Source of the DNA: Deltaproteobacteria bacterium
GTDB taxonomy: Bacteria; CALINM01
Assembly (NCBI GenBank): GCA_037442505.1
Contig: JBBIPZ010000007.1
Location: 3,758 to 67,757 of the forward strand
DNA length: 64,000 nt
Direction of reading: 5' to 3'
A program made the translations under genes and the position numbers. The notes beneath the pieces were generated by a model. That model worked only from the letters and a program-made list of their open reading frames with translations. It did not search any database and was not told the DNA's origin. Shown here piece after piece: positions 14,460 through 60,884 of this stretch (position 1 is its first letter; every line of letters starts with the position of its first letter).

Positions 14460-14788
14460 GCTTATCACCTCCTTTCTTTTAGTAGTTGCTAAAAATCTGT
14501 TTTTTTGACCTCCCTCCCTAAATATCAGACTTTTTAGCACCATCTTTTATTTAGTTTTCAATTTAAAAAATTGTTTTATTTTTGTCAATAAAAAAATGTT
14601 CTATTCCTATGATATTTTTTTCACAAGCGTTTAATTGATTAAAATTAAGATATTTTTTGTAATAAAAAAATATGTAAAATATTTCATATGGTTATGCAAA
14701 ATCATAAAAAGTAAACAACTTTAGAAAAATTAAGTCAAAAAAAGATGACGTTGATTTTTCCAATCTAACTTTGATAGACTTTACAGTG

Positions 14789-19867: not shown

Positions 19868-20241
19868 TGAAGTTCGAGCGCTATAAAAGATACACCTCTT
19901 TTGAAAACGCCCTCGTGTTTATCTTTATCCTGATAGTAGCAACATTATTGTTTTCGTATTTCAAAAAGTATGAAGATGTTATAAAAACTAAAGTTGCGAA
20001 TGAACAATTGTATCAGATAAATACTGCCATAGTCATTTATACTATAACTAAGGGTAAATTTCCTGATGATATAAAACAGCTTGTTACTGAAAATATGGTA
20101 ACTATTTCTGGCGAAACGTTTTTTAACAAAAAGTATATAGAAGGTTTGACTTTTGATAATGAAGGCTTCCCAATAGATCCGTGGGGTAATAGATACCGGT
20201 ATGATAAAGCTAAGGGATTGGTGTTCTTAGAAAAAAAGTAA
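19864..20241 (+). CDS. GspG-like pseudopilin / pilin with an atypical class III signal
   Basis: Hydrophobic N-terminal helix and a C-terminal FPIDPWGNRYRY motif (the GspG DPWG signature). The canonical G-F-T-L-I-E cleavage motif is absent (KRYTSFENAL). Confidence 0.4.
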   Translation: MMKFERYKRYTSFENALVFIFILIVATLLFSYFKKYEDVIKTKVANEQLYQINTAIVIYTITKGKFPDDIKQLVTENMVTISGETFFNKKYIEGLTFDNEGFPIDPWGNRYRYDKAKGLVFLEKK

Positions 20242-21668: not shown

Positions 21669-23513
21669 ATGATGGCAAAAGGAACGCACAAGATTCTTTA
21701 TCTTGGTGCAGATGATGTTTTTTTTAAAGAGCTTCAAGATATTTTTGTAAGTGAACCTGTTTTTTTGGAACATTTTTTAAGAGAGAGTCTTTCTTTTGCT
21801 ATCCTGCCACAAAAGGATTACTCTGTCATAATCGTTGACGCAGATTATAAAACCCCACTCACCTTTATAGAAACGCTTAGAGTGATATACAAAGATTTCT
21901 TTAAACCTTACATAATGCTTCTTGCTAAATTGGAACAGGTAAAATCTCTAAAAAATTTGATAAACTTTAAAAACTATCCTGATGATATCTGCCTTAAAAA
22001 CATCGATAAAAAATGTATTGCAAACCAGATACTTTTTGGTTGTTCGAGTTCTATATGCACAAAAGATGCTTTATGTAGCGCTGGGGAAATACAAAAAGGC
22101 GATTTTAAAGATTTATCTTATGGTAGTTTGTTGTTCAAGCTTTATAAGGAAAAATTTACTGGGAGACTGATAATAGACAGCTTTTCTGATAGGGCTGTTT
22201 TTTCATTTTTAAATGGGGAGCCTGTTGATATTAAATTCAACAGGATACTATTTACATTGGGAAGGATATTGCTAAGGCGTGGCCTTTTAGATGAAGAGAC
22301 ATATTTAAAATCTATGGAGTATATGAATGAAAAAAATATTAGGCATGGCGATGCATTGGTTGAGATGGGTATACTTTCAACATCAACAATAGTTGATATG
22401 ATTGAAGAGCAGTATAAAGAAAAATTGATGTTTTTCTTCTCAAAATTTAATGGCAATTTTTTGCTTGTCCAGAGTGATGTTGAGTTTACTATTCACCCGA
22501 AAGTGGACGTCTTTAATCTAATTTATGCAGGCGTAATGCAGTATTGTTCTGCTAAATATCTTACAGAGAAGTTTTTACTATATAAAAATAAATTCGTTGC
22601 ATTAACTGAAAACTTTACACTCTTTAATAAAAAACTCCCATTTACGGAGAATGAGCATCTACTGTTATCAAGATTAGAGTCTGCACCAGAATTGATAGAA
22701 GTTTTTGAAAGCACGTCACTCGATTTAACTCATATTTTAAAACTTTTCGAGATAATCACAATTTGTGAGATGGCAAAATTTGCTGATACTAAAGCAGATG
22801 CATTGGAGATTACTAAATGGACACAGCCAAAGATGATAGAATTAAAAAATAAGATTAATGCTGATTATATGAGTCTTAAAGAAAAAAACTATTATGAAGT
22901 GTTAGGATTAAAACAGGATTGTGATAACTCGGAGATAAAAAAACGTTACTTTGAGAAGGTGAAAAATTACCATCCTGATACTTACAATCATTTGGGATTG
23001 GACAAGGATTTGATGTCTAAGGTAAATGAAATGTTCCAGTTGATACAGATAGCTTATCAAACTCTCTCAAATCAAGAATCAAGAAAAAATTATGATGCTA
23101 TAATATCTTCAACTTTTGTGAACGAAGCGATGAAGAAGAGTAGTGACATTATCAATGCAGAGATTGCATTTAAAAAAGGAGAGTTCTTATTTAAGAAAAG
23201 AAATTATAAGGATGCAGAAGGCTACTTTAGAACAGCTGTAAATCTTTATTGGAAAGAACCAGAATATCTAATTAGCCTTGCTGTTACCCTGATGTTTATT
23301 GATAATAAAAAAATAGAAAAGCTGGAAGAAGCGAAATCTCTGCTCGAAAAGGCTATTTATATTAACCCTTATTATGACAAGTCTTATCATTATCTTGGTA
23401 TTTTTTATAAACTTACCGGAAATACAGCTGAGGCAAAGGCTTGCTTAAAAAAGGCGGTTGAGCTAAACCCTTCAAACAAAGAAGCGATCATGGAGTTAAA
23501 AAGCCTTGAGTAG
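21669..23513 (+). CDS. Multi-domain protein with a degenerate receiver-like N-terminus, a DUF4388-like domain, a J domain and C-terminal TPR repeats
   Basis: KILYLGADD...VIIVDADYKT (REC-like), LLFKLYKEKFTGRLII...NGEPVDI (DUF4388-like), YYEVLGL...KKRYF...HPD (J domain with HPD), TPR-like C-terminus. Sits between bioB and bioF. Confidence 0.6.
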   Translation: MMAKGTHKILYLGADDVFFKELQDIFVSEPVFLEHFLRESLSFAILPQKDYSVIIVDADYKTPLTFIETLRVIYKDFFKPYIMLLAKLEQVKSLKNLINFKNYPDDICLKNIDKKCIANQILFGCSSSICTKDALCSAGEIQKGDFKDLSYGSLLFKLYKEKFTGRLIIDSFSDRAVFSFLNGEPVDIKFNRILFTLGRILLRRGLLDEETYLKSMEYMNEKNIRHGDALVEMGILSTSTIVDMIEEQYKEKLMFFFSKFNGNFLLVQSDVEFTIHPKVDVFNLIYAGVMQYCSAKYLTEKFLLYKNKFVALTENFTLFNKKLPFTENEHLLLSRLESAPELIEVFESTSLDLTHILKLFEIITICEMAKFADTKADALEITKWTQPKMIELKNKINADYMSLKEKNYYEVLGLKQDCDNSEIKKRYFEKVKNYHPDTYNHLGLDKDLMSKVNEMFQLIQIAYQTLSNQESRKNYDAIISSTFVNEAMKKSSDIINAEIAFKKGEFLFKKRNYKDAEGYFRTAVNLYWKEPEYLISLAVTLMFIDNKKIEKLEEAKSLLEKAIYINPYYDKSYHYLGIFYKLTGNTAEAKACLKKAVELNPSNKEAIMELKSLE

Positions 23514-28587: not shown

Positions 28588-30456
28588 ATGAAAGACTATA
28601 AAGATTACAGTATATGTAGTGATGCTCAACTGATGCTTAAAAAGGCAGAAACGGATAATGTAGAAACAGTCTGGGACAGACACAAAAAACAACAACCTCA
28701 TTGTGGATATTGTGAATTGGGGCTTTCTTGTAGAATATGTGCTATGGGACCGTGTAGAATTGACCCTTTTGGCGAAGGTCCACAAAAAGGTGTCTGTGGT
28801 GCAGATGCTGATATAATGGTTTCAAGAAACCTTGCGAGGATGATAGCTGCGGGTTCGGCATCTCATTCTGACCATGGAAGAGATCTTGTAGAAGTGTTAT
28901 ATAAAATTGGTGAAGGTAAGACTTCAGGTTATACAATTAAAGACGCCCAAAAGTTGAAAACGGTAGCTAAAGAGTATGGCATTGACGTGTCTGGTAAAGA
29001 TGAAAAAAGTATTGCAAAAGAATTGGCGTTAGCAATGATGGAAGATTATGGGATGAAGAAAGAAGCGATTACTTTTATTTCGAGAGCTCCTGCGAAGAGG
29101 GTAGAACTCTGGAGAAAATTACGCGTTCTTCCGAGGGGAATAGATAGGGAAACATCTGAAATGATGCATCGAACACATATGGGGGTGGATAATGATTATG
29201 TGTCTATCCTTTTACAGGCAGTGAGAAATAGTCTTTCTGATGGATATGGCGGTTCAATGATAGGAACAGAAGTTTCTGATATCATTTTTGGTACTCCCAG
29301 ACCCGCTTTTTCTTCTGTAAATTTGGGCGTGCTAAAAGAAGATATGGTTAATATACTTGTCCATGGACATAATCCCGTTGTTTCAGAGATGGTTTTTCTT
29401 GCTGTTAACGACCCTGCTATGATTGATGAAGCAAAGAAGGTAGGTGCAAATGGTATTAATCTTGCTGGACTTTGTTGTACAGGCAACGAATTAATGATGA
29501 GAAAGCAGGTGCCGATGGCTGGTAATCATTTGATGACGGAGCTAACAATGGTTACAGGTGTTGTTGAGGCAATAATTGTTGACTATCAATGTATAATGCC
29601 AGCACTTGGAGATGTTGCAAAGTGTTATCACACAAAGCTCTTTTCTACATCTGATAAAGCTAAATTTCCTTTTATGGAACATATTGAGTTTAATCCTGAA
29701 AATGCAAAAGAACAGGCTTATAAAATTGTTAGCATTGCTATACAAAACTTTAAAAATAGACGAAAAGATCGCATTAACATACCTGTTAGTCCTGTAAAAT
29801 CAATGACTGGTTTTTCAGTAGAGTCTATCGTAGAGGCTTTGGGTGGTTCTTTAACACCGTTGATAGAAGCAATCAAAGCAGGCAAGATTAAAGGGGCAGT
29901 TGGTGTAGTTGGTTGTAACAATCCAAAAGTGAAACAGGACTATGGGCATGTTGAGCTTATTAAGAAACTGATTGCAAATGATATTCTTGTTTTGACAACT
30001 GGTTGTGCAAATGTCGCAGCAGGCAAGGCAGGATTACAGTTGCCAGAGGCTAAAGAAATAGCTGGATCAGGTTTAAAAGAAATATGTGGTGCACTGGGAA
30101 TCCCCCCTTCTTTACACGTTGGTTCTTGTGTAGATAATTCTCGTATTCTTGTTATAGCATGTGCATTGGCAAATGCCTTAGGTGTTGATGTCTCTGATCT
30201 GCCGCTTGCTGGTGCTGCTCCAGAGTGGTATTCAGAGAAGGCTGTGGCGATAGGTTTTTATGTGATGGCTACTGGAATATTTACAGTTTTAGGAGTAATG
30301 CCGCCAATACTTGGCAGTAAAAATATTACTAATCTTGCTATCAATGGACTAAAGGATGTTTTTGGAGCAGCATTTGCTGTTGAGCCAGACCCATTGAAAG
30401 CTGCGGATTTAATTATTGAACATATAAACCAGAAAAGGAAAAAGTTAGGAATCTAA
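28588..30456 (+). CDS. cooS: Anaerobic Ni-dependent carbon monoxide dehydrogenase catalytic subunit
   Basis: 622 aa. N-terminal [20 protein letters not shown] cluster-D/B motif; C-cluster ligand motifs GVVGCNN and [10 protein letters not shown]. Not the shorter hybrid-cluster protein. Confidence 0.85.
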
Positions 30457-39533: not shown

Positions 39534-42005
39534 TTGGATAAGCTTAGTTTCGCACAAAACGAGATAAAAGTTAATATCGAAGACGAAGTTAAACAATCGT
39601 ACTTAGATTATGCGATGAGTGTTATAGTGGGTAGAGCATTACCTGATGCGCGTGATGGTCTAAAACCTGTACATAGAAGGATTTTGTATGCAATGTACGA
39701 CATGGGCAACGAGTGGAATAAACCTTACAAAAAATCAGCCCGAATAGTTGGAGATGTTATAGGTAAGTATCACCCACATGGCGATGCTGCTGTATATGAT
39801 GCAATTGTCAGGATGGCACAAGATTTTTCTTTGAGAATGCCATTGGTGGACGGGCAGGGAAACTTTGGTTCTATTGACGGCGATCCACCAGCAGCAATGC
39901 GTTATACTGAAATTAGAATGAAGCAGCTTGCTGGTGAACTTTTAGCAGATATAGATAAAGATACGGTTGATTTTATTCCAAACTATGATGGTTCTTTATC
40001 CGAACCAGTTGTTTTGCCAGCAAAGTTGCCTAACCTGCTAATAAATGGTTCTTCAGGTATTGCAGTAGGTATGGCGACAAACATTCCGACTCACAATTTA
40101 AGAGAATGCATAAATGCTGTCATTTATATGATAGACAATCCCGATTGTGAAATTGAAGATATTATTAGAATTATACCGGGTCCAGATTTTCCAACCGGTG
40201 CATATATTCACGGAAGGGACGAGATTGTCAAGGCTTATAAGACGGGAAAAGGCATAATTAGGATACGAGGCAAGGCAGAAGAAGAGTTGTTAAAGGGTGA
40301 TAAGCACGCAATTGTAATCACTGAAATACCTTATATGGTAAACAAAGCGGAAATGATAAAGAATATAGCTGAGCTTGTCAGGGATAAAAAATTAGAAGGT
40401 ATTTCAGAAATAAGAGATGAATCTGATAAAGATGGAATAAGGGTTGTAATAGAGTTAAAAAGGGATGCAAATGGACAGGTGTTACTTAACAATTTGTATA
40501 AATTAACAAGGTTAGAGGAATCTTTTGCTATAAACATGGTGGCGATAGTAAAAGGTCAGCCTCGCTTGCTTAACTTAAAAGAAATTCTGGAAATATTCAT
40601 TTCACATAGAAAAGAAGTGGTCATACGTAGAACAAAATTTGAACTTGCGGATGCGAGAAAAAGGGCACATATTTTAGAAGGACTTAAGAAGGCGATTGAT
40701 AACTTAGACCTCACAATTAAACTAATTAGAGAGTCAAAGTCACCAAAAGAGGCTAAAGAGTCTTTGATCCTTAACCTTGATATAACTGACGTACAGGCAC
40801 AAGCTATTATAGATATGAAGCTGGCAAGACTTACAGGGCTTGAGAGAGAAAAGATAGTCGAAGAGTTTATAAATATTATGAAGCTTATAGATGAATTGGA
40901 GTCTATTTTAAGAGAAGAAAGAAAGGTTTTTGATATTATCAAGAAAGAGTTAGAAGAGATAAAAAATAAGTATGGCGATGAAAGAAGAACAGAAATCGTT
41001 TCTTCTGGTGTAGATATTAACAAGGAAGACCTTATCGAAAGAGAAGACGTTGTAATCACACTTACTCATAAGGGCTTTATAAAAAGAACCCCGGTAACCG
41101 AATACAGCACACAGAAAAGAGGTGGTAAAGGTAAAACAGCAATAAATTTAAGAGAAAAAGATTTTATAATAGATCTCTTTATTTCTTCAACTCACGATTA
41201 TGTTCTGGCATTTACTTCTTTAGGCCGTATGTATTCTATAAAGGCTTATGAGTTTCCGGAGGCTGGCAGGAATGCCTATGGAAAAATTATTACTAACTTT
41301 TTCCAGTTGAAAGAAAACGAAAAAGTTACAAACTTAATAGCTGTCAGTGATTTTGACGTTGATAAAGACCTGTTTTTTGCAACTGAAAAGGGTGTTGTAA
41401 AAAGAACACAGTTGAGTTTTTTTAAGAACATCAGAAAAACGGGTATCAACGCTATTAACCTGCCAGAAGATGATTTTCTCATATCTGCAAATATCGTTGA
41501 TAGTGAAGACCATGTGATACTTTCTTCACGAAAAGGCAAAAGTATAAGATTTCCTATTAGTGATGTTAGAAGGGTAGGAAGGGCAGCGTATGGTGTTACA
41601 GGAATGAGTTTAGAGAAGGACGATAAGGTGGTGGCAATGGATGTGATTAAAGAAAAAACGGGAAGTTTATTAACAGTTACTACCTTGGGTTATGGCAAAC
41701 AAACAGAAATTAGCGAGTATCGTTTACAAAGTAGAGGCGGCAAAGGTATATTTACCATTAAGCTTAGCCAGAAAATTGGGGAAGTGCTGGGTGTCTTAAA
41801 AACCAATCCAGATGATGAAGTGCTTTTGATTTCAAGTTCGGGCAATATGATAAGGCTAGCCGTAAAAAATATTCCTGAATATTCGAGACAGAGTCAGGGT
41901 GTAAGGCTAATTAATCTTGCAGAAGGTGAGCAGATTGTAGCAGTTGCAAAATTTGTAGAAAAGGAGAATGGAGATGAACAAGAGCCAGAAAGTACAATAC
42001 TATAA
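39534..42005 (+). CDS. gyrA: DNA gyrase subunit A (TTG start)
   Basis: [17 protein letters not shown]...GLKPVHRR, active-site Tyr region, C-terminal beta-pinwheel repeats. 823 aa. No gyrB lies adjacent. Confidence 0.95.
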
Positions 42006-42933
42006 GTATCTTTTAATCGTTTTTTCGATATTATTGTTGTTTGGATGTGCGGAGAGAAAAGCAAAATCAAATTACAAGGTGGCTGAGGAGTTGTTCAAAG
42101 GTGGTAGCTATAAGGATGCTGCAACAAAGTATATAGAGGTTATCAAATATGAAAAAGATATTCCGGAAGTTGAGGATTCTTATTACAAGTTAGGAATTAT
42201 CTATTCAAAGTATCTCGATGATCCAGCTTCTGCAATCTTTTATTTAGAAGAACTGATTAAGCGATTTCCAAAGGCTAATAAGATGGCTCAAGCAAGGAAG
42301 GAGATTGGTTATAGTTATCTTTATAAATTAAATAAGCCGGACAAGGCAGTTATCGAGTTTGAAACAATCGAAAAAAACTTTCCATCTGTTAGCTTTCTTG
42401 ACGAGGTAGTTTATTTAAAAGGACAAGCATATCTTGCTCAGAAAAAGTTTGACCTGGCTGAAAAAACTTACGGTAACTTTACTGTAGTATTTAAAAACTC
42501 AAAATATTCAGAAGAAGTGGAATATAAATTAGGCTTGATAAAATTAAATCTCGGCAAAGATAAAGAGGCGAATGATCTTTTAAGACAGTTTATAGAAAAA
42601 TATCCTCAATCTTCTTATATACTACTTGCTAAGTTTGACTTAGGCAATTCATACGAAAATTTGGGAGATTTAAAAAAGGCTTTAGAAGTATACAAGAGTA
42701 TCGGTGGTGATTATCCAAATCAAGAAGCTTTACATACCAAGATTTCGAAGTTAGAAGAAAGATTAAAGAAAAAATCTAAGGCAGCTATTACAAGGACACC
42801 AGCATCTATTAAAAAGGCGAGAACCAATGCAGCTACCAGGAAGGTTCAGCCTAAAAAGAGTGCAGAGAAAAATAATACAAAAAAGCGTGCAAAGAAGAAT
42901 AATACAAAAAAGACGTCAAAAAAGAAAAAGTGA
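41968..42933 (+). CDS. TPR-repeat lipoprotein with a lysine-rich C-terminal tail
   Basis: Lipobox LLFGC, several TPR-like repeats, and a C-terminal KKxxxKK tail. Overlaps the gyrA 3' end; an alternative start is at 41974. Confidence 0.55.
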
Positions 42934-49181: not shown

Positions 49182-50762
49182 ATGAAAAGGTTATTTTTAA
49201 TGTTGGTTCTTATACTTTTATTCTTTACCAACCATACCTCAGCAGCTAAGAAAATAGAAAAGGGAACTGCAGACAGCAAAGCTTGTTATCAGTGTCACGA
49301 TGAGATTAAGGCACTCAAAGAAGGTTCTAAACACGCGAAATTGGATTGTGGTCAATGTCACGGAAACTTATCTGAACACTTAGGGAATCCTGATACAAAA
49401 CCTTCAACAAATCTGGGACTTGATAACTGCGGCAGATGTCACAAAGACCAGTACGATTCATACTTTCAGGTAAATTATCATAAAAGAGCTAAGAAGGAAA
49501 AGGCAATCCCTGATGGTAGAGCACCACTGCTTGATAAGCTTCTTGCCGGTCATGGTTTTACAAAGGAGCATGCAGAGCCCAGAAGCCATCCCTTTATGTT
49601 AATTGACCATATCATTGTTGATAGAGCTTATGGTGGTAGATTCCAGTACAAAAACTGGGCTGATATAACAAAAACTGGTAAACCCTGGGATATCCTGATT
49701 GATACAAACAAGACAATTCCAGAATCTGCAAAAGCAGCAAATCCAACCTGCATTCAGTGCAAAACTTCTGATTTTGTAATGAAATGGGCATATTTAGGTG
49801 ATAAAAATCCAAAAGCAAAATGGGATAGAACATCAAATGTATTTGAAGTAATAAAGGATGCACAAAATCCAGTTGGTTGCATCCATTGTCATGATCCCCA
49901 TGCGGCAAAGGGAAGGGTAATAAGAGATGCCTTAATACGGGCGGTGCAAACATATGGAGATAGACCTTATAGTAAGAAAAATGACAAAAATGCTCTTGAT
50001 GTAAAAGAGTTCAGAGGCTATAGAAAGATTGGATTACTTAAGAAAAATGATTCAGTACTTATGTGTGCCCAGTGTCATGTGGAGTATGCCTGCAATCCTG
50101 GATTTGAGAAAGATGATTTTAACAAAAAGATAGGTTTTAATGACCAGAGAACCAATATATTCCCATGGAAGAATGTCTTTGATGTGCTTAAATTTTACGA
50201 TGAGATTAACTTTAGAGATTACAGACATCCAGTAACAGAGGCAAATCTGATTAAATTCCAACATCCTGAAACAGAGACGTTTTTTGACAGCAAACATGAA
50301 AGGGCAGGTGTAACCTGTGCTGATTGCCATATGGCAAAAACAAAAAATAAAGCTGGTAAAACTTATACATCACACTTTGTTGTAAGCCCGAGGGAAAATA
50401 TAAAAGGAACATGCCTCAAATGCCATAAAGACTGGACAGAGAAACAGGCAATATACACAATAGATAGCGTAAAAAACTATATAAAAGGAAAAATCAGAAA
50501 ATCTGAATACTGGTTGTCTCAGTTTATTGACAAGTTTGAAAAGGCAAAGAAGAAAGGTGTAAGCAAAGATGTGTTAAAAGAGGCAAGAAAACAGCATGAC
50601 ATAGCCCATGCTCACTGGGAATGGTGGACTGCAGAAAACTCCGATGGATTCCATAACCCTGACCAGGCAAGACAATCATTAGCAACATCTATCGAAGCTT
50701 CCAGGAAAGGAATAGAGATACTCGACAAGGCAATAAAGGAAAAGGTTATCACAGCCAAATAG
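49182..50762 (+). CDS. Octaheme cytochrome c nitrite reductase (TvNiR/ONR-like)
   Basis: Signal peptide. Eight heme motifs: CYQCH, CGQCH, CGRCH, CIQCK, CIHCH, CAQCH, CADCH, CLKCH. The fourth is a CXXCK, consistent with a Lys-ligated catalytic heme. SD GGGAGG. Confidence 0.8.
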   Translation: MKRLFLMLVLILLFFTNHTSAAKKIEKGTADSKACYQCHDEIKALKEGSKHAKLDCGQCHGNLSEHLGNPDTKPSTNLGLDNCGRCHKDQYDSYFQVNYHKRAKKEKAIPDGRAPLLDKLLAGHGFTKEHAEPRSHPFMLIDHIIVDRAYGGRFQYKNWADITKTGKPWDILIDTNKTIPESAKAANPTCIQCKTSDFVMKWAYLGDKNPKAKWDRTSNVFEVIKDAQNPVGCIHCHDPHAAKGRVIRDALIRAVQTYGDRPYSKKNDKNALDVKEFRGYRKIGLLKKNDSVLMCAQCHVEYACNPGFEKDDFNKKIGFNDQRTNIFPWKNVFDVLKFYDEINFRDYRHPVTEANLIKFQHPETETFFDSKHERAGVTCADCHMAKTKNKAGKTYTSHFVVSPRENIKGTCLKCHKDWTEKQAIYTIDSVKNYIKGKIRKSEYWLSQFIDKFEKAKKKGVSKDVLKEARKQHDIAHAHWEWWTAENSDGFHNPDQARQSLATSIEASRKGIEILDKAIKEKVITAK

Positions 50763-52722: not shown

Positions 52723-54078
52723 ATGTTTAGTAAAATTAATAAAAATAGAATTTTTGTAATAAAATCTGGAGCTTTACAACCCCGTCCTGTTGTTTACTGG
52801 ATGAGTAGGGAACAAAGAGTAAGCGATAATTGGGCGCTGATATATGCGCAGAATATTGCATTAACTCTAAAAGTTCCATTATTTGTTGTATTTTGCCTTG
52901 TTTCTGATTTTCTGGGTGCAACTATCAGACATTACGGTTTTATATTGAGAGGGTTACAACAGGTAAAAGAAAAACTTAAATTAAAAAATATTCCTTTTTT
53001 CTTGTTGAACGGTGACCCATCTATAAAAATCCCCGAGTTTTTGTCTGAAGTCAAAGCTGGGCTTCTTGTTACAGACTTTGACCCTTTGAAGATTAAGAGA
53101 ACATGGAAAAATGAAATATCTAAAAAAATTAAAATTCCGTTTCACGAAGTGGATGCTCATAATATTGTTCCTGTCAGATTTGTTTCAAATAAACAGGAGT
53201 ATGGTGCATATACAATCAGACCTAAAATTATGAGGTTACTCGGGGATTTTTTAACCGAGTTCCCTCAAATTGTCAGGCATCCAGAAACTGCAAAGGCTGG
53301 TAATAACTCAGTAGAACCGGTTGAAATGATATCTTTACTTAAAGTTGATAGAAGCGTGCCTGAAATTAGCTGGTTAAAACCGGGAGAGGATGAGGCACAA
53401 AAGATTTTAAATGACTTTGTTAAAAATCGACTTAATGATTATGCGTTTAAAAGAAATAATCCAGTGTTAAACGGACAGTCCAATTTATCTCCGTATTTAC
53501 ATTTTGGACAGATTTCAGCTCAGAGGGTTGGATTGACAGTTATGTCAGCGGATATAAGAGAGGATTCTAAAATGGCTTTTCTTGAAGAATTAATTGTAAG
53601 AAAAGAGCTTTCTGATAATTTCTGTTATTACAATGAGGATTATGACAAAATTTTAGGTTTTCCTGAATGGGCAAGAAAGATTCTTGAAAAACATAAAAAA
53701 GATAAAAGAGATTACATCTACTCATTAGAGGCGTTTGAATATGCTAAAACACATGATCCTTTATGGAATGCGGCTCAGATAGAAATGGTAAAAAATGGTA
53801 AGATGCATGGATATATGCGCATGTATTGGGCAAAAAAGATACTTGAATGGTCACCTACTCCTGAAGATGCTTTTGCAATAGCTATTTATTTAAATGATAG
53901 ATACGAGCTTGATGGAAGGGATCCCAATGGTTACACTGGCATTGCCTGGTCTATAGGTGGCGTTCATGATAGAGCATGGGCGGAGCGGAAAGTTTTTGGA
54001 AAAATAAGATATATGAGCTTTAAAGGTTGTCAGAGCAAATTTGATGTTCAAGGTTATATTAATAAAATGACAGAGTAA
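52723..54078 (+). CDS. phr: Class II CPD photolyase (deoxyribodipyrimidine photo-lyase)
   Basis: N-terminus ALQPRPVVYWMSREQRVSDNWAL is typical of class II photolyases. FAD-binding C-terminal domain. Confidence 0.85.
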   Translation: MFSKINKNRIFVIKSGALQPRPVVYWMSREQRVSDNWALIYAQNIALTLKVPLFVVFCLVSDFLGATIRHYGFILRGLQQVKEKLKLKNIPFFLLNGDPSIKIPEFLSEVKAGLLVTDFDPLKIKRTWKNEISKKIKIPFHEVDAHNIVPVRFVSNKQEYGAYTIRPKIMRLLGDFLTEFPQIVRHPETAKAGNNSVEPVEMISLLKVDRSVPEISWLKPGEDEAQKILNDFVKNRLNDYAFKRNNPVLNGQSNLSPYLHFGQISAQRVGLTVMSADIREDSKMAFLEELIVRKELSDNFCYYNEDYDKILGFPEWARKILEKHKKDKRDYIYSLEAFEYAKTHDPLWNAAQIEMVKNGKMHGYMRMYWAKKILEWSPTPEDAFAIAIYLNDRYELDGRDPNGYTGIAWSIGGVHDRAWAERKVFGKIRYMSFKGCQSKFDVQGYINKMTE

Positions 54079-54130
54079 AACTTTTGCAAAAATATATATA
54101 TTATAATATAATGAAAGGTGTGGAGGAGTT

Positions 54131-56533
54131 GTGAAAAAAGAAGTTTTTAAGATAGAGGGCATTCACTGTGCTTCTTGTATTTCCCGTATAGAAAATGCGC
54201 TTCTTAAACTTAATGGTGTAAAGAGTGTAAATGTTAGTTTGGCAAATGGAGTGACTACAGTAGTTTATGACGATGCTTTGCTTACACCATTGGTTTTTAA
54301 GTCTGAAGTTGAAGCTTTAGGTTATAAATTTCTTATAAAAAAAGAAAAAAAACTTATCATCAATGTCACTGGTTTACATTGTGCCTCTTGTGTTAGCAGG
54401 TTACAAGATCGTTTGAAAGAACAAATAGGTGTAATTGATGCAACTGTAAATCTTGCTACATCTAAGGCTTTTATCGTATTTTTCCCAAGCGAAATAAGTA
54501 TTGATAAAATAAAGAGTGTCATTATAGCTACTGGATATAGTGTTGCTGAACTTGAAGAAATTGATCCTTCAATTGAAGATATTAGGACATATAAAAAGAA
54601 TTTTAGTTATGCCGCTTTGTTTTCACTTCCTTTGTTTATCATAACGATGGCAGAACATTTTTACTCTTACAAAATTATTACAAACGATATACTGTATTCT
54701 ATTTTTCAATTTCTTTTGGCAACACCTGTTATTTATTTTGGCAGAAATTTTTATATTAATGGTATCAAATCTGTTTTAAAGGCTAAAACCGCAACTATGG
54801 ATACACTGGTAGCCTTAGGGACAGGGGCAGCCTATGTTTATAGCGTTTATGTGACGATTATGATTTTATTAAATAACAGTAATTTTAGTTCTATGCACCT
54901 TTATTATGAAACATCTGCTGTGCTTATATCGTTTATCTTGTTGGGCAGGTTTTTAGAGGCAAAGGCAAAAGGGAAAACTGGAGAAGCAATAAAAAGGCTA
55001 ATGGGATTGACGCCAAAAACTGCTACTGTAATAAGAGATACTACTGAACTTATTGTTCCGATAGATGAGGTATTGAAGGAAGACATAGTTTTAATTAAAC
55101 CAGGCGATAGAATTCCGGTGGATGGAGAAGTCATAGATGGCTATTCTTATATAGATGAATCAATGATTACTGGCGAAAGTGTTCCCGTAGAAAAGAAGGT
55201 TGGAGATAAGGTGATAGCAGGTACGATTAACGGAAATAAGATATTGAAGATAAAGGCTGTTTCTGTAGGCGCAGAAACATTGCTTTCTCAGATAATAAGA
55301 CTTGTTGAGGAATCGCAAGCCTCTAAAGCGCAAATTCAAAAGATTGCTGATAAGGTTAGTTCTGTATTTGTGCCAGTAGTTTTTATTATAGCTTTAGTCA
55401 GTTTTTTTACATGGATTGTCTTGGATTATGATACTGAATTTGCCTTTAGTTCGTTTATTTCTGTCTTAATTATTGCATGTCCATGCTCACTTGGTTTAGC
55501 TACGCCTACGGCTATTATTGTTGGAACTGGAATGGGAGCTGAGAGAGGTATATTATTTAAAAATGCAGAGGCGTTAGAAAAACTGGCAAAAGTAGAAATG
55601 TTGCTTATGGATAAAACTGGGACTCTAACATATGGTAAACCGGAAGTTGTTGATATAGTTAGTTATGGTATCAGTAGTGATGAATTGCTTAAAATTGCTG
55701 CTTCAATTGAAAAGGTTGCAACGCACCCTCTTGCAGATGCAGTAGTTAGAAAGTATTCTAACTCAGATTTCTATGAAATTTCTAATTTTGACACATTGCC
55801 TGGAATGGGCGTCCTGGCTACGATAAATAATGAAAAATTTTATTTAGGCTCAATAAATTTAATGAAAGAAATAGGCATAAAAATTGAAAATATTGTAAAT
55901 GATGTTTATTCTACAATTTATATTGCAAATGAGCAAAGTAGCGGAAAAAAGGATTTATTAGGTTATATTTCTGTATTTGACAAAATCAAAGAAGATGCTG
56001 AAGAGTTTGTCAAAAAAATGACTCAATTAGGAGTTAAGCTTTTTATATTAACAGGCGATAATGAAAAAGTTGCAGAGTATGTAGCCAAAACACTTGGAAT
56101 TGAGTATTATAAGGCAAACGTTTTACCTCACGAAAAACAACAAGTAGTTCTTGCCGAAAAAGAGAGATATAAATTTGTTGGTATGGTTGGTGATGGAATA
56201 AATGATTCTCCTGCCCTTGCAGCATCTGATGTCGGTATAGCATTTGGGTCTGGCACGGATATCGCTACGGAAACAAGCGACATTGTTTTGGTGAAACCTA
56301 ATTTGATGGGAATATATAAATTGTTACTGTTAAGTAAATTTACAATTAGCAAAATTAAACAAAACCTTTTTTGGGCTTTTATTTATAATTCAATTGGCAT
56401 ACCTTTGGCAGCTGGGTTACTTTACCCTTTTTTTGGTATTCAATTGAATCCAATGTTTGCAGGAGTTGCTATGGCTATGAGTTCTGTCTCAGTTGTCACA
56501 AATTCGTTGTTAATGAAGAGGAAACATATATGA
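54131..56533 (+). CDS. copA: Copper-translocating P1B-type ATPase with two N-terminal HMA domains
   Basis: Two GxHCASC metal-binding sites, CPC in the TM segment, DKTGT phosphorylation site, GDGINDSPAL hinge. GTG start with SD GGAGGAG. Confidence 0.9.
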   Translation: MKKEVFKIEGIHCASCISRIENALLKLNGVKSVNVSLANGVTTVVYDDALLTPLVFKSEVEALGYKFLIKKEKKLIINVTGLHCASCVSRLQDRLKEQIGVIDATVNLATSKAFIVFFPSEISIDKIKSVIIATGYSVAELEEIDPSIEDIRTYKKNFSYAALFSLPLFIITMAEHFYSYKIITNDILYSIFQFLLATPVIYFGRNFYINGIKSVLKAKTATMDTLVALGTGAAYVYSVYVTIMILLNNSNFSSMHLYYETSAVLISFILLGRFLEAKAKGKTGEAIKRLMGLTPKTATVIRDTTELIVPIDEVLKEDIVLIKPGDRIPVDGEVIDGYSYIDESMITGESVPVEKKVGDKVIAGTINGNKILKIKAVSVGAETLLSQIIRLVEESQASKAQIQKIADKVSSVFVPVVFIIALVSFFTWIVLDYDTEFAFSSFISVLIIACPCSLGLATPTAIIVGTGMGAERGILFKNAEALEKLAKVEMLLMDKTGTLTYGKPEVVDIVSYGISSDELLKIAASIEKVATHPLADAVVRKYSNSDFYEISNFDTLPGMGVLATINNEKFYLGSINLMKEIGIKIENIVNDVYSTIYIANEQSSGKKDLLGYISVFDKIKEDAEEFVKKMTQLGVKLFILTGDNEKVAEYVAKTLGIEYYKANVLPHEKQQVVLAEKERYKFVGMVGDGINDSPALAASDVGIAFGSGTDIATETSDIVLVKPNLMGIYKLLLLSKFTISKIKQNLFWAFIYNSIGIPLAAGLLYPFFGIQLNPMFAGVAMAMSSVSVVTNSLLMKRKHI

Positions 56534-57900
56534 GCTCTGTTCAACCAATAATTACGGACATTATCGAAAAGGACGAGTTAATGGAGCTTACATCTGATTT
56601 TTCTAAAAAGTTTGGTTTTTGTGCCTTTATTCTTGATTCCAAAGGAAAAATGATTGTCGAAAAACAGTTTATACCAGAGTACTGCGAACGTATTTTGAGT
56701 GTTAAGGAAAATGCTACTAAGTGTTATAAAGATACCATTTCAAAGATAATGTTAAACAAAGTGCTTTATGATGAATGTTGGGCTGGCCACCGTAAAATTA
56801 TTGTTCCTATTAAGTTCATGAACAATGTTATAGCTTACTGGATTACCTGTGGTATAGCATCAGATGTAAATGAGAAGTTTGTGCAAGCCTTAGCAAACAT
56901 GATTGACAGCTTTATAAACAAGTTTTTAAAATCTTACGAAAAGTGGTTTAATGAAAGAGAGTTTGCTACAAAGATTTTAAATAACCTTATTTCTCAGCAA
57001 GATTATGATCAGGTACTCGAAAAAATTGTATCTTCTGCTACAAAGATACTAAAAACGGATAGGACAACACTTTTTATATACGATGGGGGAAAGTTGGTAA
57101 GTAGAATTGCAGAAGGGCTCGAGCAGGAGATTGCATTAAATTTAGGGGAAGGAATAGCAGGAACCTGTGCGTTAAATAGAGAAATAATTGCTATTGATGA
57201 AGTTAAACCTGAAATTGGCATAAAATCGATTATAAAAGAGTATGAAGTTAAAAATCTAATTTGTGCACCAATAATATTCAAAAAAAAGTTGTTGGGTGTA
57301 ATAGAGTCTTTTAATAAAGGAACTTCTTTCACGATGAAAGATAGAAAACATATATCATATTTGGCAGATGCAGCTGCAATTGCACTTAATAATGCTCAAA
57401 CATTTGTTGCATTGCAAAGAATGTCAATATTGGACCCACTTACCCAACTTTACAACAGAAACTATTTTATTAGATGTCTCGAAAAGGAAACTACGAGACT
57501 GAACAGGTACTCTGGAGAGTTATCCCTTATGTTTATTGATCTTGATGACTTTAAAAAGTTTAATGACTTGTATGGTCATACTGTAGGAGATATTGTTCTT
57601 AAAGAGTTTTCAAACCTTATAAAAAACAACCTAAGAGACGCTGATATTGCTGCAAGGTTTGGTGGAGAAGAGTTTGTTGTAATGTTACCAAATACTGATA
57701 GAGAGGGAGCTTATAAAACAGCAGAAAGATTACAACAATCAATTAGAAATACTGAAATTGCGGGACATAAAGTTAGTGCGAGCATTGGTATCGCCTGTTA
57801 TCGGTTAGGGCTTACTGCTAAAATGCTAATTGATAGGGCTGACAAAGCTATGTATCATGTTAAGAGAACACAAAAGGGTACTATAAGCTTCTGGGATTAG
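56530..57900 (+). CDS. Diguanylate cyclase with PocR-like and GAF sensory domains (PocR-GAF-GGDEF)
   Basis: N-terminal Cys pattern C..C...C.AGHRKIIVPI (PocR-like), a GAF-like middle, and RFGGEEF in an intact GGDEF domain. ATGA overlap with copA. Confidence 0.8.
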   Translation: MSSVQPIITDIIEKDELMELTSDFSKKFGFCAFILDSKGKMIVEKQFIPEYCERILSVKENATKCYKDTISKIMLNKVLYDECWAGHRKIIVPIKFMNNVIAYWITCGIASDVNEKFVQALANMIDSFINKFLKSYEKWFNEREFATKILNNLISQQDYDQVLEKIVSSATKILKTDRTTLFIYDGGKLVSRIAEGLEQEIALNLGEGIAGTCALNREIIAIDEVKPEIGIKSIIKEYEVKNLICAPIIFKKKLLGVIESFNKGTSFTMKDRKHISYLADAAAIALNNAQTFVALQRMSILDPLTQLYNRNYFIRCLEKETTRLNRYSGELSLMFIDLDDFKKFNDLYGHTVGDIVLKEFSNLIKNNLRDADIAARFGGEEFVVMLPNTDREGAYKTAERLQQSIRNTEIAGHKVSASIGIACYRLGLTAKMLIDRADKAMYHVKRTQKGTISFWD

Positions 57901-59122
57901 ACAGAAGAAATGTAAAGAAGTCTGTAAAAAGATCGACAGGATTTTGTTGAGAAGCTTTTAGAGCTTTCTCTAAGTCAAATAGTTTAGTATAAGCTGCAAG
58001 TAATGTTTGTAGTGAAAATGGTAAAAAAGTCTGGTAACACTGAAAAAGATAGTAAGGATGTTGCTTTTTATACGCTGAGTTTTTTCTGTAAAAATTCATT
58101 TCAAAATCTCTATATTCTTTAAAGTCGTGTGGATGGGCATCTTCTTTCACCTTTATAGCGGTTTTAAGGAGGCTTTTTACAAGCCCTGCAAGCTTTATGT
58201 AGTCGTTTTTAGCGTTTTTCGTATTTGAGATAATTTTAAAAATATTCAAAAAGTCACCTTTCCTAATAAAATCTGCAATTTTAAGTGCATCAGGCACGTA
58301 GTCATCGTCAAATGCCTGTTCGATATCCTCTTTGGTTATTTCTTTTTTTTCAAAAACAAGCAAGTCAAGCTTATTAAGTGTTGCAGAAAGTTGGTCGCAA
58401 AGTAGAGCCCTTTCTTTTAAATAAAAGTAATCCTCTTTCGATAATTGTTTGTTAGATCTCTTAATAAAGTCTTCCAAGATTTTTTCTTTTAGGGCCGCGA
58501 TTTCCCGCTCACTCAATTTTTTTTCAACCATTTCGTAAATAGTTGAGTGTTTTTCAAAGATTTTATAATTTTTTGTCCTTTTATCAGCCTTTTCAGTTGT
58601 AATAACAAGATAATGCCCGCTGGGGATTTCATCTATAACTGATTGAAAATCAAAACTTTCTACAACAGGTAGCGTTTTGGGTAGAGGTGCATGGTTGAGT
58701 ATCTTTGTAATAAAATCAAAGTTTTCCAAATATTCTTCGAGATAAACTTTGATTTGACTTTTGTCATTAAGAATATCGCTATAATCTTCTTCAGACAGTT
58801 CTAAAGCCGATAAAATCTGTATTAGACAACCATATGCCTTTTCGAGATTATTCTCTAAGACAAGTTCTTGGCACTTTTCTATGAGCTTTTTAACATCTTC
58901 CTCTTGCTTGAAAATTGTCGAATTTTGTATGACAAAAAATTTGGGTGTTCCAAAAAGAGAGTATGTTTTTAAAGAAGTTTTTATTGATTGCCAGTCACTG
59001 TTGTTAGGGTCAAAATACTCGATATTTTCAGGATTAACTTTGTATTCTTCAAGTAGCTCTTTTAGCTTTTGCTTTTGAAAAAACTCATTGCCGATAATTA
59101 TAAAGATATTATCTTTTTTCAT
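57881..59122 (-). CDS. Probable DNA polymerase III delta subunit (HolA-like)
   Basis: N-terminus IFIIIGNEFFQKQKLKEL and SLFGTPKFFVI resemble HolA motifs. At 413 aa it is longer than usual, and the rest is weakly informative. Confidence 0.45.
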   Translation of the reverse strand: MKKDNIFIIIGNEFFQKQKLKELLEEYKVNPENIEYFDPNNSDWQSIKTSLKTYSLFGTPKFFVIQNSTIFKQEEDVKKLIEKCQELVLENNLEKAYGCLIQILSALELSEEDYSDILNDKSQIKVYLEEYLENFDFITKILNHAPLPKTLPVVESFDFQSVIDEIPSGHYLVITTEKADKRTKNYKIFEKHSTIYEMVEKKLSEREIAALKEKILEDFIKRSNKQLSKEDYFYLKERALLCDQLSATLNKLDLLVFEKKEITKEDIEQAFDDDYVPDALKIADFIRKGDFLNIFKIISNTKNAKNDYIKLAGLVKSLLKTAIKVKEDAHPHDFKEYRDFEMNFYRKNSAYKKQHPYYLFQCYQTFLPFSLQTLLAAYTKLFDLEKALKASQQNPVDLFTDFFTFLLSNPRSL

Positions 59123-60521: not shown

Positions 60522-60884
60522 ATGTTAACGCTAAATTCTACCATAAAGGAAATTTTAGTTAGAGAGAACTCAGTAGAAGCTGCAATAATCCTTGATAAAG
60601 ATGGTATTGTTGTTGCAGAAGAGTCTAAATCTGGAGATAAAAAAGCTCAAGAGCTTGCTATAGAGTATGCCTCTGTTATGAAACAGATACTTAAGGTAAC
60701 AGACTACTTAAACATAGGGGCATTGGAAGAGATCCTTGTATATACTGAAAAAAGTATTATCGTAATAAGATTAATAACGAGAGAGTACTACCTGATTTTA
60801 ATAACCAACACTGATGGTAATATTGGTAAAGCAAAATATCTGGCAAAATTGACAGGTGAAAGGTTAGAAAAGGAGTTTAAGTGA
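60522..60884 (+). CDS. Roadblock/LC7 (MglB-like) domain protein
   Basis: 120 aa; EAAIILDKDGIVVA...ILVYTEKSIIVIRL resembles the Roadblock fold pattern. Confidence 0.65.
   Translation: MLTLNSTIKEILVRENSVEAAIILDKDGIVVAEESKSGDKKAQELAIEYASVMKQILKVTDYLNIGALEEILVYTEKSIIVIRLITREYYLILITNTDGNIGKAKYLAKLTGERLEKEFK

What the first reader, a model, noticed from the sequence alone, without database searches (positions are those of the whole stretch)
54131..57900. Copper P-type ATPase translationally coupled to a PocR-GAF-GGDEF diguanylate cyclase
The stop of copA (two HMA domains, CPC, DKTGT) overlaps the ATG of a protein with a Cys-containing PocR-like sensory domain, a GAF domain and an intact GGDEF (RFGGEEF). 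The ATGA overlap sits at 56530-56533. Co-transcription would tie c-di-GMP synthesis, and hence possibly biofilm or motility decisions, to the copper-export response. I do not know of a described function for this pairing. No CsoR/CopY/CueR regulator gene lies adjacent, and upstream of copA there is only an AT-rich palindromic TATA-like stretch.
Basis: partly seen in the sequence, partly recalled or inferred. Interest (0 to 1): 0.5.

Follow-up and report, generated by a model that had tools for sequence, protein, structure and literature searches.

The report
Copper pump gene coupled to c-di-GMP cyclase

Summary
- copA (54131-56533) has two HMA domains, CPC and DKTGT.
- The next gene (56530-57900) scores above Pfam cut-offs for PocR, GAF and GGDEF. 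It has GGEEF and an RxxD I-site.
- The ATGA overlap lies at 56530-56533.

The pairing is conserved. All 11 distinct ortholog loci carry copA immediately upstream of the cyclase, with an ATGA overlap in eight. The upstream neighbour changes four ways. The cyclase (62-79% identity) is better conserved than CopA (57-67%).

Four cautions apply.
- Four-base overlaps join 8 of 42 same-strand gene pairs in this window, including unrelated genes.
- holA and Iso_dh are as stably adjacent as copA and the cyclase.
- No copper regulator or known copper operator was found.
- Three of the PocR cysteines are hallmarks of all PocR domains, not a copper adaptation. Two others are specific to this family.

Verdict: probably a real bicistronic operon, and a new variant of the known theme of a c-di-GMP enzyme gene inside a metal-resistance operon (mer-urf2/mrp). 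Its functional meaning is unproven.

The parts
54084..54112 (+). Sigma-70-like promoter candidate TTGCAA-17 nt-TATAAT in the 52-nt gap between the photolyase gene and copA. It includes the AT-rich 'TATA-like' stretch.
   Evidence: 10 of 12 matches; sequence read. A similar TTGCAA-N16-TATAAT lies upstream of copA in L092. This is a consensus match only, and such sites are not enriched in the region (30 found against 27 expected).
54122..54127 (+). Shine-Dalgarno-like GGAGGA, 3 nt before the GTG start of copA.
   Evidence: Read directly.
54131..56533 (+). copA: a P1B-1-type copper(I) P-type ATPase of 800 aa. It has two N-terminal HMA domains (CASC twice), TGES, CPC, DKTGT, HP, GDGIND, YN and MxxSS.
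   Evidence: TIGR01511 scores 605 bits against a cut-off of 397. The E. coli CopA equivalog model NF007952 scores 625 bits, below its cut-off of 1316.
56516..56522 (+). Purine-rich AAGAGGA inside the 3' end of copA, 7 nt before the ATG of the cyclase gene. It is a possible ribosome-binding site for the second gene.
   Evidence: Read. Similar AAGGA or AAAGG strings lie at the same place in the orthologs. The junction RNA has no significant structure (z = +0.84).
56530..56533 (+). ATGA: the start codon of the cyclase gene overlaps the TGA stop of copA.
   Evidence: The same overlap occurs in L001, L003, L086, L088, L092, L098 and L101. L094 has a 10-nt overlap. L004 has a 6-nt gap and L087 an 8-nt gap.
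56530..57900 (+). Cytosolic sensor diguanylate cyclase of 456 aa with the architecture PocR-GAF-GGDEF.
   Evidence: The AlphaFold2 model has a mean pLDDT of 84.3.
56557..56943 (+). PocR sensory domain (aa 10-138). It has five cysteines invariant in the family: C31, C52, C65, C83 and C107.
57001..57387 (+). GAF domain (aa 158-286) with invariant C213 and C245.
   Evidence: PF01590 scores 48.9 bits and PF13185 scores 44.1 bits. Invariant columns are listed.
57427..57876 (+). GGDEF catalytic domain (aa 300-449). The I-site RDAD is at 57634-57645 and the active site GGEEF at 57661-57675.
   Evidence: PF00990 scores 154 bits and TIGR00254 scores 168.9 bits. The motifs are invariant in 23 sequences.
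57881..57900 (.). Convergent 20-nt overlap between the 3' end of the cyclase gene and the 3' end of holA (57881..59122, -). No terminator-like site follows the cyclase gene on the + strand.
   Evidence: Convergent overlaps of 14-17 nt occur in the ortholog loci examined that keep holA downstream.

Best explanation
copA and the PocR-GAF-GGDEF gene form a two-gene operon. It is inherited as a unit throughout an uncultured, deep-branching bacterial lineage.

Transcription most likely starts at a sigma-70-type promoter just upstream of copA and runs through both genes. Ribosomes finishing copA can start the cyclase gene at the overlapping ATGA. The cell therefore makes the cytosolic cyclase whenever, and roughly as much as, it makes the copper pump.

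The cyclase has every residue needed to make c-di-GMP and an RxxD site for product inhibition. Its activity is presumably gated by two GAF-like sensor modules rich in invariant cysteines. The likely physiological effect is to couple copper-export capacity to c-di-GMP-controlled behaviour.

Shown: the genes, domains, motifs, overlap and conservation of the pair. Inferred: co-transcription. Weakly inferred: that copper, or a copper-related thiol or redox signal, is what the unit responds to.
For: Gene and domain identity.

Pairing:
- It occurs in 11 of 11 distinct loci. These were reached from the cyclase side (L001, L003, L004, L086, L087, L088; L098, L101) and from the CopA side (L092, L094).
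- Junctions are an ATGA overlap in 8 loci, a 10-nt overlap in 1, and gaps of 6 and 8 nt in 2.
- The pair survives four different upstream neighbours (photolyase, TAL_FSA, glycosyltransferase, carboxyltransferase) and one change of downstream neighbour (L001).
- 12 cyclase clusters and 12 CopA clusters share the same longest-contig lengths.

Selection and specificity:
- The cyclase is under strong constraint. It is 62-79% identical across the lineage, against 57-67% for CopA and 36-54% for HolA.
- Only 2 of 83 loci around other GGDEF relatives hold any P-type ATPase within 6 kb, and neither is adjacent.
- Distant PocR-GAF-GGDEF proteins have no copA neighbour.

Transcript structure: there is no terminator-like site between the genes or after the photolyase gene.

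Precedents:
- A c-di-GMP enzyme gene lies inside a metal-resistance operon in the mer-urf2/mrp case (PMC6629876).
- Cysteines in a GAF domain sense copper and NO in PdtaS (PMC8131098).
Against: - Four-base overlaps are frequent in this genome: 8 of 42 same-strand pairs, and 13 of 42 overlap in some way. They also join unrelated genes, such as prepilin peptidase/nitroreductase, a BamD-like TPR protein/RlmH, and roadblock/AroQ.
- holA and Iso_dh, which are functionally unrelated, stay adjacent in every locus that has them. Lineage-wide synteny alone can therefore preserve a pair.
- No copper-responsive regulator gene is in the 64-kb window. No CopY, CsoR or CueR operator pattern is in nine copA upstream regions.
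- PocR domains are conventionally linked to small organic ligands such as propanediol and methanol (PMC13602510).
- Three of the PocR cysteines are family-wide.
- All relatives come from one lineage, with GyrA 70-95% identical, so the 11 loci are not independent inventions.
- There are no expression data.
Confidence: 0.5

Rival explanations
1. Genomic hitch-hiking. The two genes are neighbours, and probably share a transcript, only because this compact genome packs same-strand genes tightly and the lineage keeps its gene order. The cyclase senses something unrelated to copper, and the pairing has no regulatory meaning.
For: - 19% of same-strand junctions in the window are 4-nt overlaps. At least three of the other seven join unrelated genes.
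- The roadblock/aroQ overlap is also conserved in L092.
- holA and Iso_dh are as stable as copA and the cyclase.
- No copper regulator or operator was found.
- PocR is conventionally treated as a sensor of small organic molecules.
Against: - The copA-cyclase junction stayed intact through at least four rearrangements immediately upstream and one immediately downstream.
- The tight junction is kept even in the most divergent loci, with no gap above 8 nt.
- The cyclase family exists only in this pairing. It forms a single 50%-identity cluster among 1.84 billion representatives.
Confidence: 0.33
2. The cyclase is itself the copper sensor. Cu(I), or copper-induced thiol stress, binds the cysteine-lined pocket of the PocR domain and/or the GAF cysteines and switches the cyclase. 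Coupled translation ensures a fixed ratio to CopA, possibly as a physical partner of the pump.
For: - Seven cysteines are invariant in the sensor half: C31, C52, C65, C83 and C107 in PocR, and C213 and C245 in GAF.
- C31 and C107 are additions specific to this family.
- In the model, the five PocR cysteines lie on strands and helices of a GAF-like fold. In such folds these elements surround the ligand pocket.
- The PdtaS precedent shows direct copper and NO sensing by GAF cysteines.
- No separate copper regulator was found.
Against: - Three of the cysteines are generic PocR features.
- No CxxC or other known Cu(I) motif is present.
- Model coordinates could not be inspected, so clustering of the cysteines is not shown.
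- There is no evidence for contact with CopA.
Confidence: 0.14
3. The ATPase is not a copper exporter but moves another metal such as Zn, Cd or Co. In that case the unit would concern a different metal.
For: Zn/Cd models also match, because the families are related: TIGR01512 scores 403.6 bits and PRK11033 scores 411 bits.
Against: - The copper model TIGR01511 scores higher, at 605 bits.
- CPC in TM4, YN in TM5 and MxxSS in TM6 together with CxxC HMA domains form the P1B-1 Cu(I)/Ag(I) signature. The motifs were read. The signature itself is from established knowledge of P1B-ATPase subgroups.
Confidence: 0.03

Closest known systems
urf2/mrp EAL phosphodiesterase in the Tn501/Tn21 mer operon of Cupriavidus metallidurans (PMC6629876)
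   Same: A c-di-GMP-metabolising enzyme gene sits at the distal end of a metal-resistance operon. The metal response and c-di-GMP turnover are therefore expressed together.
   Different: - The known case is a phosphodiesterase (EAL), which lowers c-di-GMP. Here the enzyme is a cyclase, which raises it.
- The known case involves mercury or cadmium under MerR control on a transposon. Here it is a chromosomal copA with no known regulator.
- The accessory domains differ: DUF3330 there, PocR and GAF here.
Copper-exporting P1B-1 ATPases (CopA of E. coli, Archaeoglobus fulgidus, Legionella pneumophila)
   Same: HMA domains with CxxC, CPC, DKTGT, YN and MxxSS are present. TIGR01511 scores above its cut-off.
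   Different: - The score is below the cut-off of the E. coli CopA equivalog model.
- Well-studied copA genes are controlled by CueR, CsoR or CopY and are often paired with copZ. None of these is present here.
- The downstream partner is a cyclase.
PdtaS of Mycobacterium tuberculosis (PMC8131098)
   Same: It is a cytosolic signalling enzyme whose N-terminal GAF-type domain uses cysteines to sense copper and NO directly. This is the working model for the cysteine-rich sensor half here.
   Different: - The output is a histidine kinase, not a cyclase.
- The sensing motif is a CxxxC dicysteine, which is absent here.
- PdtaS is not encoded next to a copper pump.
Metal-sensing c-di-GMP enzymes: zinc-regulated DgcZ (CZB domain; from my own knowledge) and the P. 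aeruginosa CHASE4 protein PA14_37690 that likely binds copper (PMC13277305)
   Same: A metal ion modulates a c-di-GMP enzyme through an N-terminal sensor domain.
   Different: - The sensor domains differ: CZB and periplasmic CHASE4 there, cytosolic PocR plus GAF here.
- No CZB or CHASE4 match was found.
- Neither known enzyme is encoded in a copA operon.
PocR of Salmonella and MtaR of Eubacterium limosum (PMC13602510)
   Same: They share the PocR sensory domain with the three hallmark cysteines.
   Different: - Those proteins are AraC-type transcription factors responding to propanediol or methanol.
- Here the output is GGDEF.
- This PocR variant is very divergent. The next best match in 1.84 billion representatives has E = 1.7e-8.
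- This variant has two extra invariant cysteines.

Membership tests
P1B-1 copper(I) P-type ATPase (CopA) | Score above the curated cut-off of the copper-translocating ATPase subfamily model | tested here: met
   TIGR01511 scores 605.1 bits against a cut-off of 397.
P1B-1 copper(I) P-type ATPase (CopA) | DKTGT phosphorylation site, TGES, GDGIND, CPC in TM4, YN in TM5, MxxSS in TM6 | tested here: met
   All were read in the translation: LMDKTGT, ITGESVP, VGDGINDS, IACPCSL, FIYNSIGIP, AMAMSSVS.
P1B-1 copper(I) P-type ATPase (CopA) | N-terminal heavy-metal-associated domain(s) with CxxC | tested here: met
   PF00403 matches two stretches. The motifs are GIHCASC and GLHCASC.
P1B-1 copper(I) P-type ATPase (CopA) | Equivalog of E. 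coli CopA (NF007952) | tested here: not met
   625 bits against a cut-off of 1316. It is a subfamily member, not an equivalog.
P1B-1 copper(I) P-type ATPase (CopA) | Copper or silver export activity | not testable with these tools
   Needs transport or complementation assays.
GGDEF diguanylate cyclase | GGDEF domain above cut-off with an intact GG[D/E]EF and the metal- and GTP-binding residues | tested here: met
   PF00990 scores 154.1 bits (cut-off 23.8) and TIGR00254 scores 168.9 bits (cut-off 37.4). GGEEF, DxD (IDLDDFK), N345 and D354 are invariant.
GGDEF diguanylate cyclase | Allosteric I-site RxxD five residues before GG[D/E]EF | tested here: met
   RDAD-IAARF-GGEEF. R369 and D372 are invariant in 23 sequences.
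GGDEF diguanylate cyclase | c-di-GMP synthesis | not testable with these tools
   Needs an enzyme assay.
PocR sensory domain (PF10114) | Score above the gathering cut-off | tested here: met
   42.6 bits against 23.9, covering aa 10-138.
PocR sensory domain (PF10114) | The cysteines shared by PocR domains | tested here: met
   C52, C65 and C83 align with Cys in 25 of 25 distant PocR domains.
PocR sensory domain (PF10114) | Binding of a small hydrocarbon derivative | not testable with these tools
   The ligand is unknown. The fold search gave only generic GAF/IclR-effector similarity.
GAF domain | Score above the gathering cut-off | tested here: met
   PF01590 scores 48.9 bits against 22.4. PF13185 scores 44.1 bits against 28.6.
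Bicistronic operon with translational coupling | Same strand, stop/start overlap, no intervening terminator, junction conserved in relatives | tested here: met
   The pair is present in 11 of 11 loci, with an overlap in 9 and a gap of at most 8 nt in 2.
Bicistronic operon with translational coupling | A single transcript spans both genes, and the downstream gene depends on upstream translation | not testable with these tools
   There are no expression data. The junction RNA shows no structure that hides the ribosome-binding site (z = +0.84), so independent initiation is also possible.
Metal-regulated resistance operon carrying a c-di-GMP enzyme (mer-urf2/mrp type) | Control by a metal-sensing transcription factor | tested here: not met
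   No MerR/CueR, CsoR or CopY gene came up among the window's long ORFs scanned with Pfam, and none of the short gap ORFs looks like one. No matching operator pattern is in nine upstream regions. A regulator encoded elsewhere in the genome cannot be excluded.
Metal-regulated resistance operon carrying a c-di-GMP enzyme (mer-urf2/mrp type) | The enzyme is an EAL phosphodiesterase | tested here: not met
   No EAL domain is present. The enzyme is a GGDEF cyclase.
CZB- or CHASE4-type metal-sensing cyclases | CZB or CHASE4 sensor domain | tested here: not met
   Neither family appears among the Pfam matches of the protein.

The most novel reading that the evidence does not exclude
The PocR-GAF-GGDEF protein is a direct cytosolic sensor of Cu(I) or thiol stress. 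The three cysteines common to all PocR domains, plus the two added in this family, would form a metal- or cluster-binding pocket that switches c-di-GMP synthesis. The protein would be made in fixed proportion to the copper pump it monitors. If so, PocR domains in general might be metal- or redox-centre sensors rather than plain hydrocarbon binders. This lineage would then use c-di-GMP, rather than a classical CsoR- or CueR-type repressor, as its read-out of copper load. A possible output is the MshEN-domain pilus/secretion ATPase encoded in the same window.
Probability: 0.12. Interest if true: 0.65.

Novelty: new variant of a known kind. Interest (0 to 1): 0.36.

Why it matters
Copper tolerance and the sessile/motile decision are usually studied apart. 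A hard-wired copA-cyclase unit would be a simple natural example of a stress-export system that also reports to the c-di-GMP network.

It also offers a compact, soluble 456-aa protein in which the still undefined ligand chemistry of the PocR domain could be tested. That domain has three universally conserved cysteines.

The organisms are uncultured, so the value lies mainly in heterologous and biochemical tests. If the pairing is only inherited gene order, the locus is ordinary.

Tried and rejected
- The genome-contig scan with the full-length alignment chose generic GGDEF patterns and returned 80 unrelated cyclase loci. They were reused only as a background set. The organism titles hoped for were not obtained.
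- The PDB sequence search with the PocR domain found no relative (best E = 0.5, ribosomal protein noise).
- The pattern search for CopY boxes, CsoR-like and CueR-like operators and ArsR-type repeats in nine copA upstream regions was negative. The only strong palindrome (L092, 18 bp) is not conserved.
- Rfam found no c-di-GMP riboswitch or other regulatory RNA in the window. The only match is one tRNA.
- Folding of the junction RNA shows no significant structure.
- Model coordinates are not exposed, so distances between cysteines could not be measured.
- An internal promoter for the cyclase was considered. A TTGACA-18-TAAAAT site at 56903-56932 lies inside the cyclase gene itself, and the count of such sites equals the shuffled expectation. 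It was rejected as evidence.
- Horizontal transfer of the pair was considered. G+C content (0.31-0.36) and skew match the flanks, so there is no sign of an island.


Full report
**What is there**

The + strand carries two genes that overlap by four bases.

The first runs 54131..56533, starts with GTG and encodes 800 aa.
- GGAGGA lies three bases before the start codon.
- Pfam finds two HMA domains, E1-E2_ATPase and the HAD hydrolase domain.
- The NCBIfam copper-translocating ATPase model TIGR01511 scores 605 bits against a cut-off of 397.
- The E. coli CopA equivalog model scores 625 bits, below its cut-off of 1316.
- The translation shows CASC twice, TGES, CPC, DKTGT, GDGIND, YN and MxxSS. 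By established knowledge of P1B ATPases, this is the Cu(I)/Ag(I) signature.

The second gene runs 56530..57900 and encodes 456 aa.
- It scores above the Pfam cut-offs for PocR (42.6 against 23.9), GAF (48.9 against 22.4) and GGDEF (154 against 23.8).
- It has GGEEF and an RxxD I-site (RDAD) at the canonical spacing.
- The ATGA at 56530-56533 was read directly.

**Surroundings**

- Upstream lies a class II photolyase gene (52723..54078, +; TIGR00591 at 648 bits).
- A 52-nt gap follows.
- Downstream, holA (57881..59122, -) converges on the cyclase gene and overlaps it by 20 nt.
- No terminator-like site lies between the two genes or after the cyclase gene on the + strand.
- The rest of the window is core chromosome: gyrA, rpoD, dnaG, efp, biotin genes, a CO dehydrogenase/prismane cluster and a pilus/secretion cluster.
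- No CsoR, CopY, CueR or CopZ match appeared among the long ORFs scanned with Pfam, and none of the small ORFs in the gaps looks like one.
- Base composition does not set the pair apart from its flanks.

**Relatives**

A search of 5.8 billion proteins with the cyclase gave a tight set of 22 full-length clusters at 62-96% identity. Identity then fell abruptly to about 31%.

A profile of the PocR domain was searched against 1.84 billion 50%-identity representatives. Only one cluster scored below 1e-10, the family itself, and the next hit had E = 1.7e-8. The family is therefore small, and its PocR domain is very divergent.

GyrA shows the same pattern. About 15 clusters lie at 70-95% identity, followed by a gap to 57-59%. 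The labelled hits there are Thermodesulfobacteriota and Deltaproteobacteria. The window thus comes from an isolated, uncultured lineage. I could not name it.

Gene contexts were fetched from the cyclase side, from the CopA side and from a metagenome scan with PocR-specific patterns.

- All 11 distinct loci have copA immediately upstream of the cyclase gene on the same strand. They are the window, L001, L003, L004, L086, L087, L088, L092, L094, L098 and L101.
- The junction is an ATGA overlap in eight, a 10-nt overlap in one, and gaps of 6 and 8 nt in two.
- The upstream neighbour differs four ways: photolyase, divergent transaldolase-family gene, glycosyltransferase and carboxyltransferase.
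- The downstream neighbour differs once (L001).
- More distant PocR-GAF-GGDEF proteins, at about 31% identity, have no copA neighbour.
- Of 83 loci around other GGDEF relatives, only two hold any P-type ATPase within 6 kb. Both are only 25% identical and neither is adjacent.
- The cyclase is 62-79% identical to the window copy. CopA is 57-67%, HolA 36-54% and Iso_dh 85-91%. The cyclase is therefore under stronger constraint than the pump.

**Why this is not yet a functional link**

- The overlap is a common junction type here. Of 42 same-strand adjacent pairs in the window, 8 overlap by 4 nt and 13 overlap in some way.
- Of the seven other 4-nt overlaps, three join related genes: pilC-like/pseudopilin, bioA/bioD and ABC ATPase/permease.
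- At least three join genes with no evident relation: prepilin peptidase/nitroreductase, a BamD-like TPR protein/RlmH and roadblock/AroQ.
- holA and Iso_dh, which are unrelated, are adjacent in every locus that has them. Inherited gene order alone can therefore keep a pair together across this lineage.
- All relatives belong to one lineage, so the 11 loci are one evolutionary invention observed many times.
- Nothing shows that this copA responds to copper. There is no regulator gene in 64 kb. Nine upstream regions hold no CopY, CsoR, CueR or ArsR-type operator pattern. Rfam finds no riboswitch.

**The sensor half**

The family alignment shows seven invariant cysteines: C31, C52, C65, C83 and C107 in PocR, and C213 and C245 in GAF.

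Aligned with 25 distant PocR domains, C52, C65 and C83 are cysteine in all 25. C107 is cysteine in 4 and C31 in none. The 'Cys-containing' character is therefore largely a hallmark of PocR domains as such, with two additions specific to this family.

- AlphaFold2 models are confident, with pLDDT 84.3 for the whole protein and 90.9 for the PocR domain.
- No solved PocR structure was found by sequence.
- The literature held here treats PocR as a presumed binder of small hydrocarbon derivatives without biochemical proof (PMC13602510).
- Cysteines of a GAF domain do sense copper and NO directly in M. tuberculosis PdtaS (PMC8131098). A thiol-based metal or redox sensor is therefore a reasonable, untested model.

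**Most likely mechanism**

I take the pair to be a bicistronic operon transcribed from the promoter-like site upstream of copA. In the window, read-through from the photolyase gene is also possible.

The cyclase gene has a purine-rich AAGAGGA 7 nt before its ATG, and the junction RNA shows no significant structure (z = +0.84). It could therefore be translated by re-initiation or independently. Either way, its supply follows that of copA.

The cyclase is predicted to be active and product-inhibited, and to be gated by its two sensor modules. That the gating signal is copper-related is the weakest step. My probabilities are:

| Reading | Probability |
|---|---|
| Operon whose function links copper to c-di-GMP (co-transcription alone about 0.8) | about 0.5 |
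| Pure hitch-hiking | about 0.33 |
| The cyclase is itself the copper or thiol sensor | about 0.14 |
| The pump handles a different metal | about 0.03 |

**Comparison with what is known**

- The closest described arrangement is the EAL phosphodiesterase urf2/mrp at the end of Tn501/Tn21 mer operons, which is induced by metals (PMC6629876). The idea is the same, but the enzyme has the opposite activity, the metal differs and the regulator is known.
- Metal-sensing c-di-GMP enzymes exist. Examples are a P. aeruginosa CHASE4 protein that likely binds copper (PMC13277305) and zinc-regulated DgcZ, which I cite from my own knowledge. They use other sensor domains and are not encoded with a pump.
- Three full-text searches combining copper, CopA or P-type ATPase with diguanylate cyclase or GGDEF found no description of a copA-cyclase operon. 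That library is incomplete.
- I therefore rate the finding as a new variant of a known kind.

**Verdict**

The unit is real and stable. Its physiological meaning is inferred, and the genome's habit of overlapping unrelated genes tempers the inference. Interest is moderate at 0.36. It would rise if the PocR pocket proved to be a metal or thiol sensor.

Noticed in passing
window 16899-18656 (+), with 14771-15559, 18656-19867 and 19864-20241: A type II/IV secretion ATPase carries an N-terminal MshEN domain. Its first 56 residues contain two copies of the c-di-GMP-binding motif as I recall it (KKLGELLIEAGYINEKILEEALKN and KRIGEVLISEGYITEDLIAKALGEQ). It sits beside pilC-like, pseudopilin and prepilin-peptidase genes. 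It is a candidate receptor for the c-di-GMP made by the cyclase 38 kb away.
   Followed up: partly
window 57881-57900; also L003, L004, L086, L087, L088, L092, L094: The cyclase gene and holA converge and overlap at their 3' ends, by 20 nt in the window and 14-17 nt in the relatives. No terminator-like site is present. Transcripts from the two strands would collide or pair.
   Followed up: partly
window 15556-15559, 42930-42933, 60881-60884: Four-base start/stop overlaps join genes with no evident functional relation: prepilin peptidase/nitroreductase, a BamD-like TPR protein/RlmH and roadblock/dehydroquinase II. The roadblock/aroQ overlap recurs in L092. Overlap is a poor guide to function in this genome.
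   Followed up: yes
window 39534-42005 (gyrA): GyrA relatives fall into about 15 clusters at 70-95% identity. A gap then follows to 57-59%, where the labelled hits are Thermodesulfobacteriota. The window belongs to an isolated uncultured lineage that I could not name.
   Followed up: partly
window 54131-56533 (copA): Beyond the lineage's own orthologs (56-100% identity), the next CopA relatives are at 45-48%. Many of them are labelled as DPANN-type archaea (Woesearchaeota, Diapherotrites, Pacearchaeota). This could reflect shared AT-rich composition or an old transfer.
   Followed up: no
L004 and L087 against the other loci: Two subclades have a shorter CopA of 726-730 aa with one HMA domain. 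These are exactly the loci in which the copA-cyclase junction is a short gap (6 or 8 nt, stop TAA) rather than an overlap.
   Followed up: partly
L092, 103 nt upstream of copA: A perfect 18-bp palindrome, ACACTTAACGTTAAGTGT, lies in the divergent region between a carboxyltransferase gene and copA. It is absent from the window and the other loci.
   Followed up: no
window 52723-54078, 49182-50762 and 28588-30456: A class II photolyase is encoded next to markers of an anaerobic lifestyle. These are a multihaem cytochrome c552-family protein and a prismane/CO dehydrogenase-family protein with ferredoxin and flavoprotein partners.
   Followed up: no
window 56903-56932 (+): The best promoter-like match in the region, TTGACA-18-TAAAAT (11 of 12), lies inside the cyclase gene at about codons 125-134. 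The total count of such sites equals the shuffled expectation, so it is probably chance.
   Followed up: partly
window 203-1219 and 21669-23513: Two proteins carry DUF4388. One of them also has DnaJ and TPR domains. Their function is unknown.
   Followed up: no
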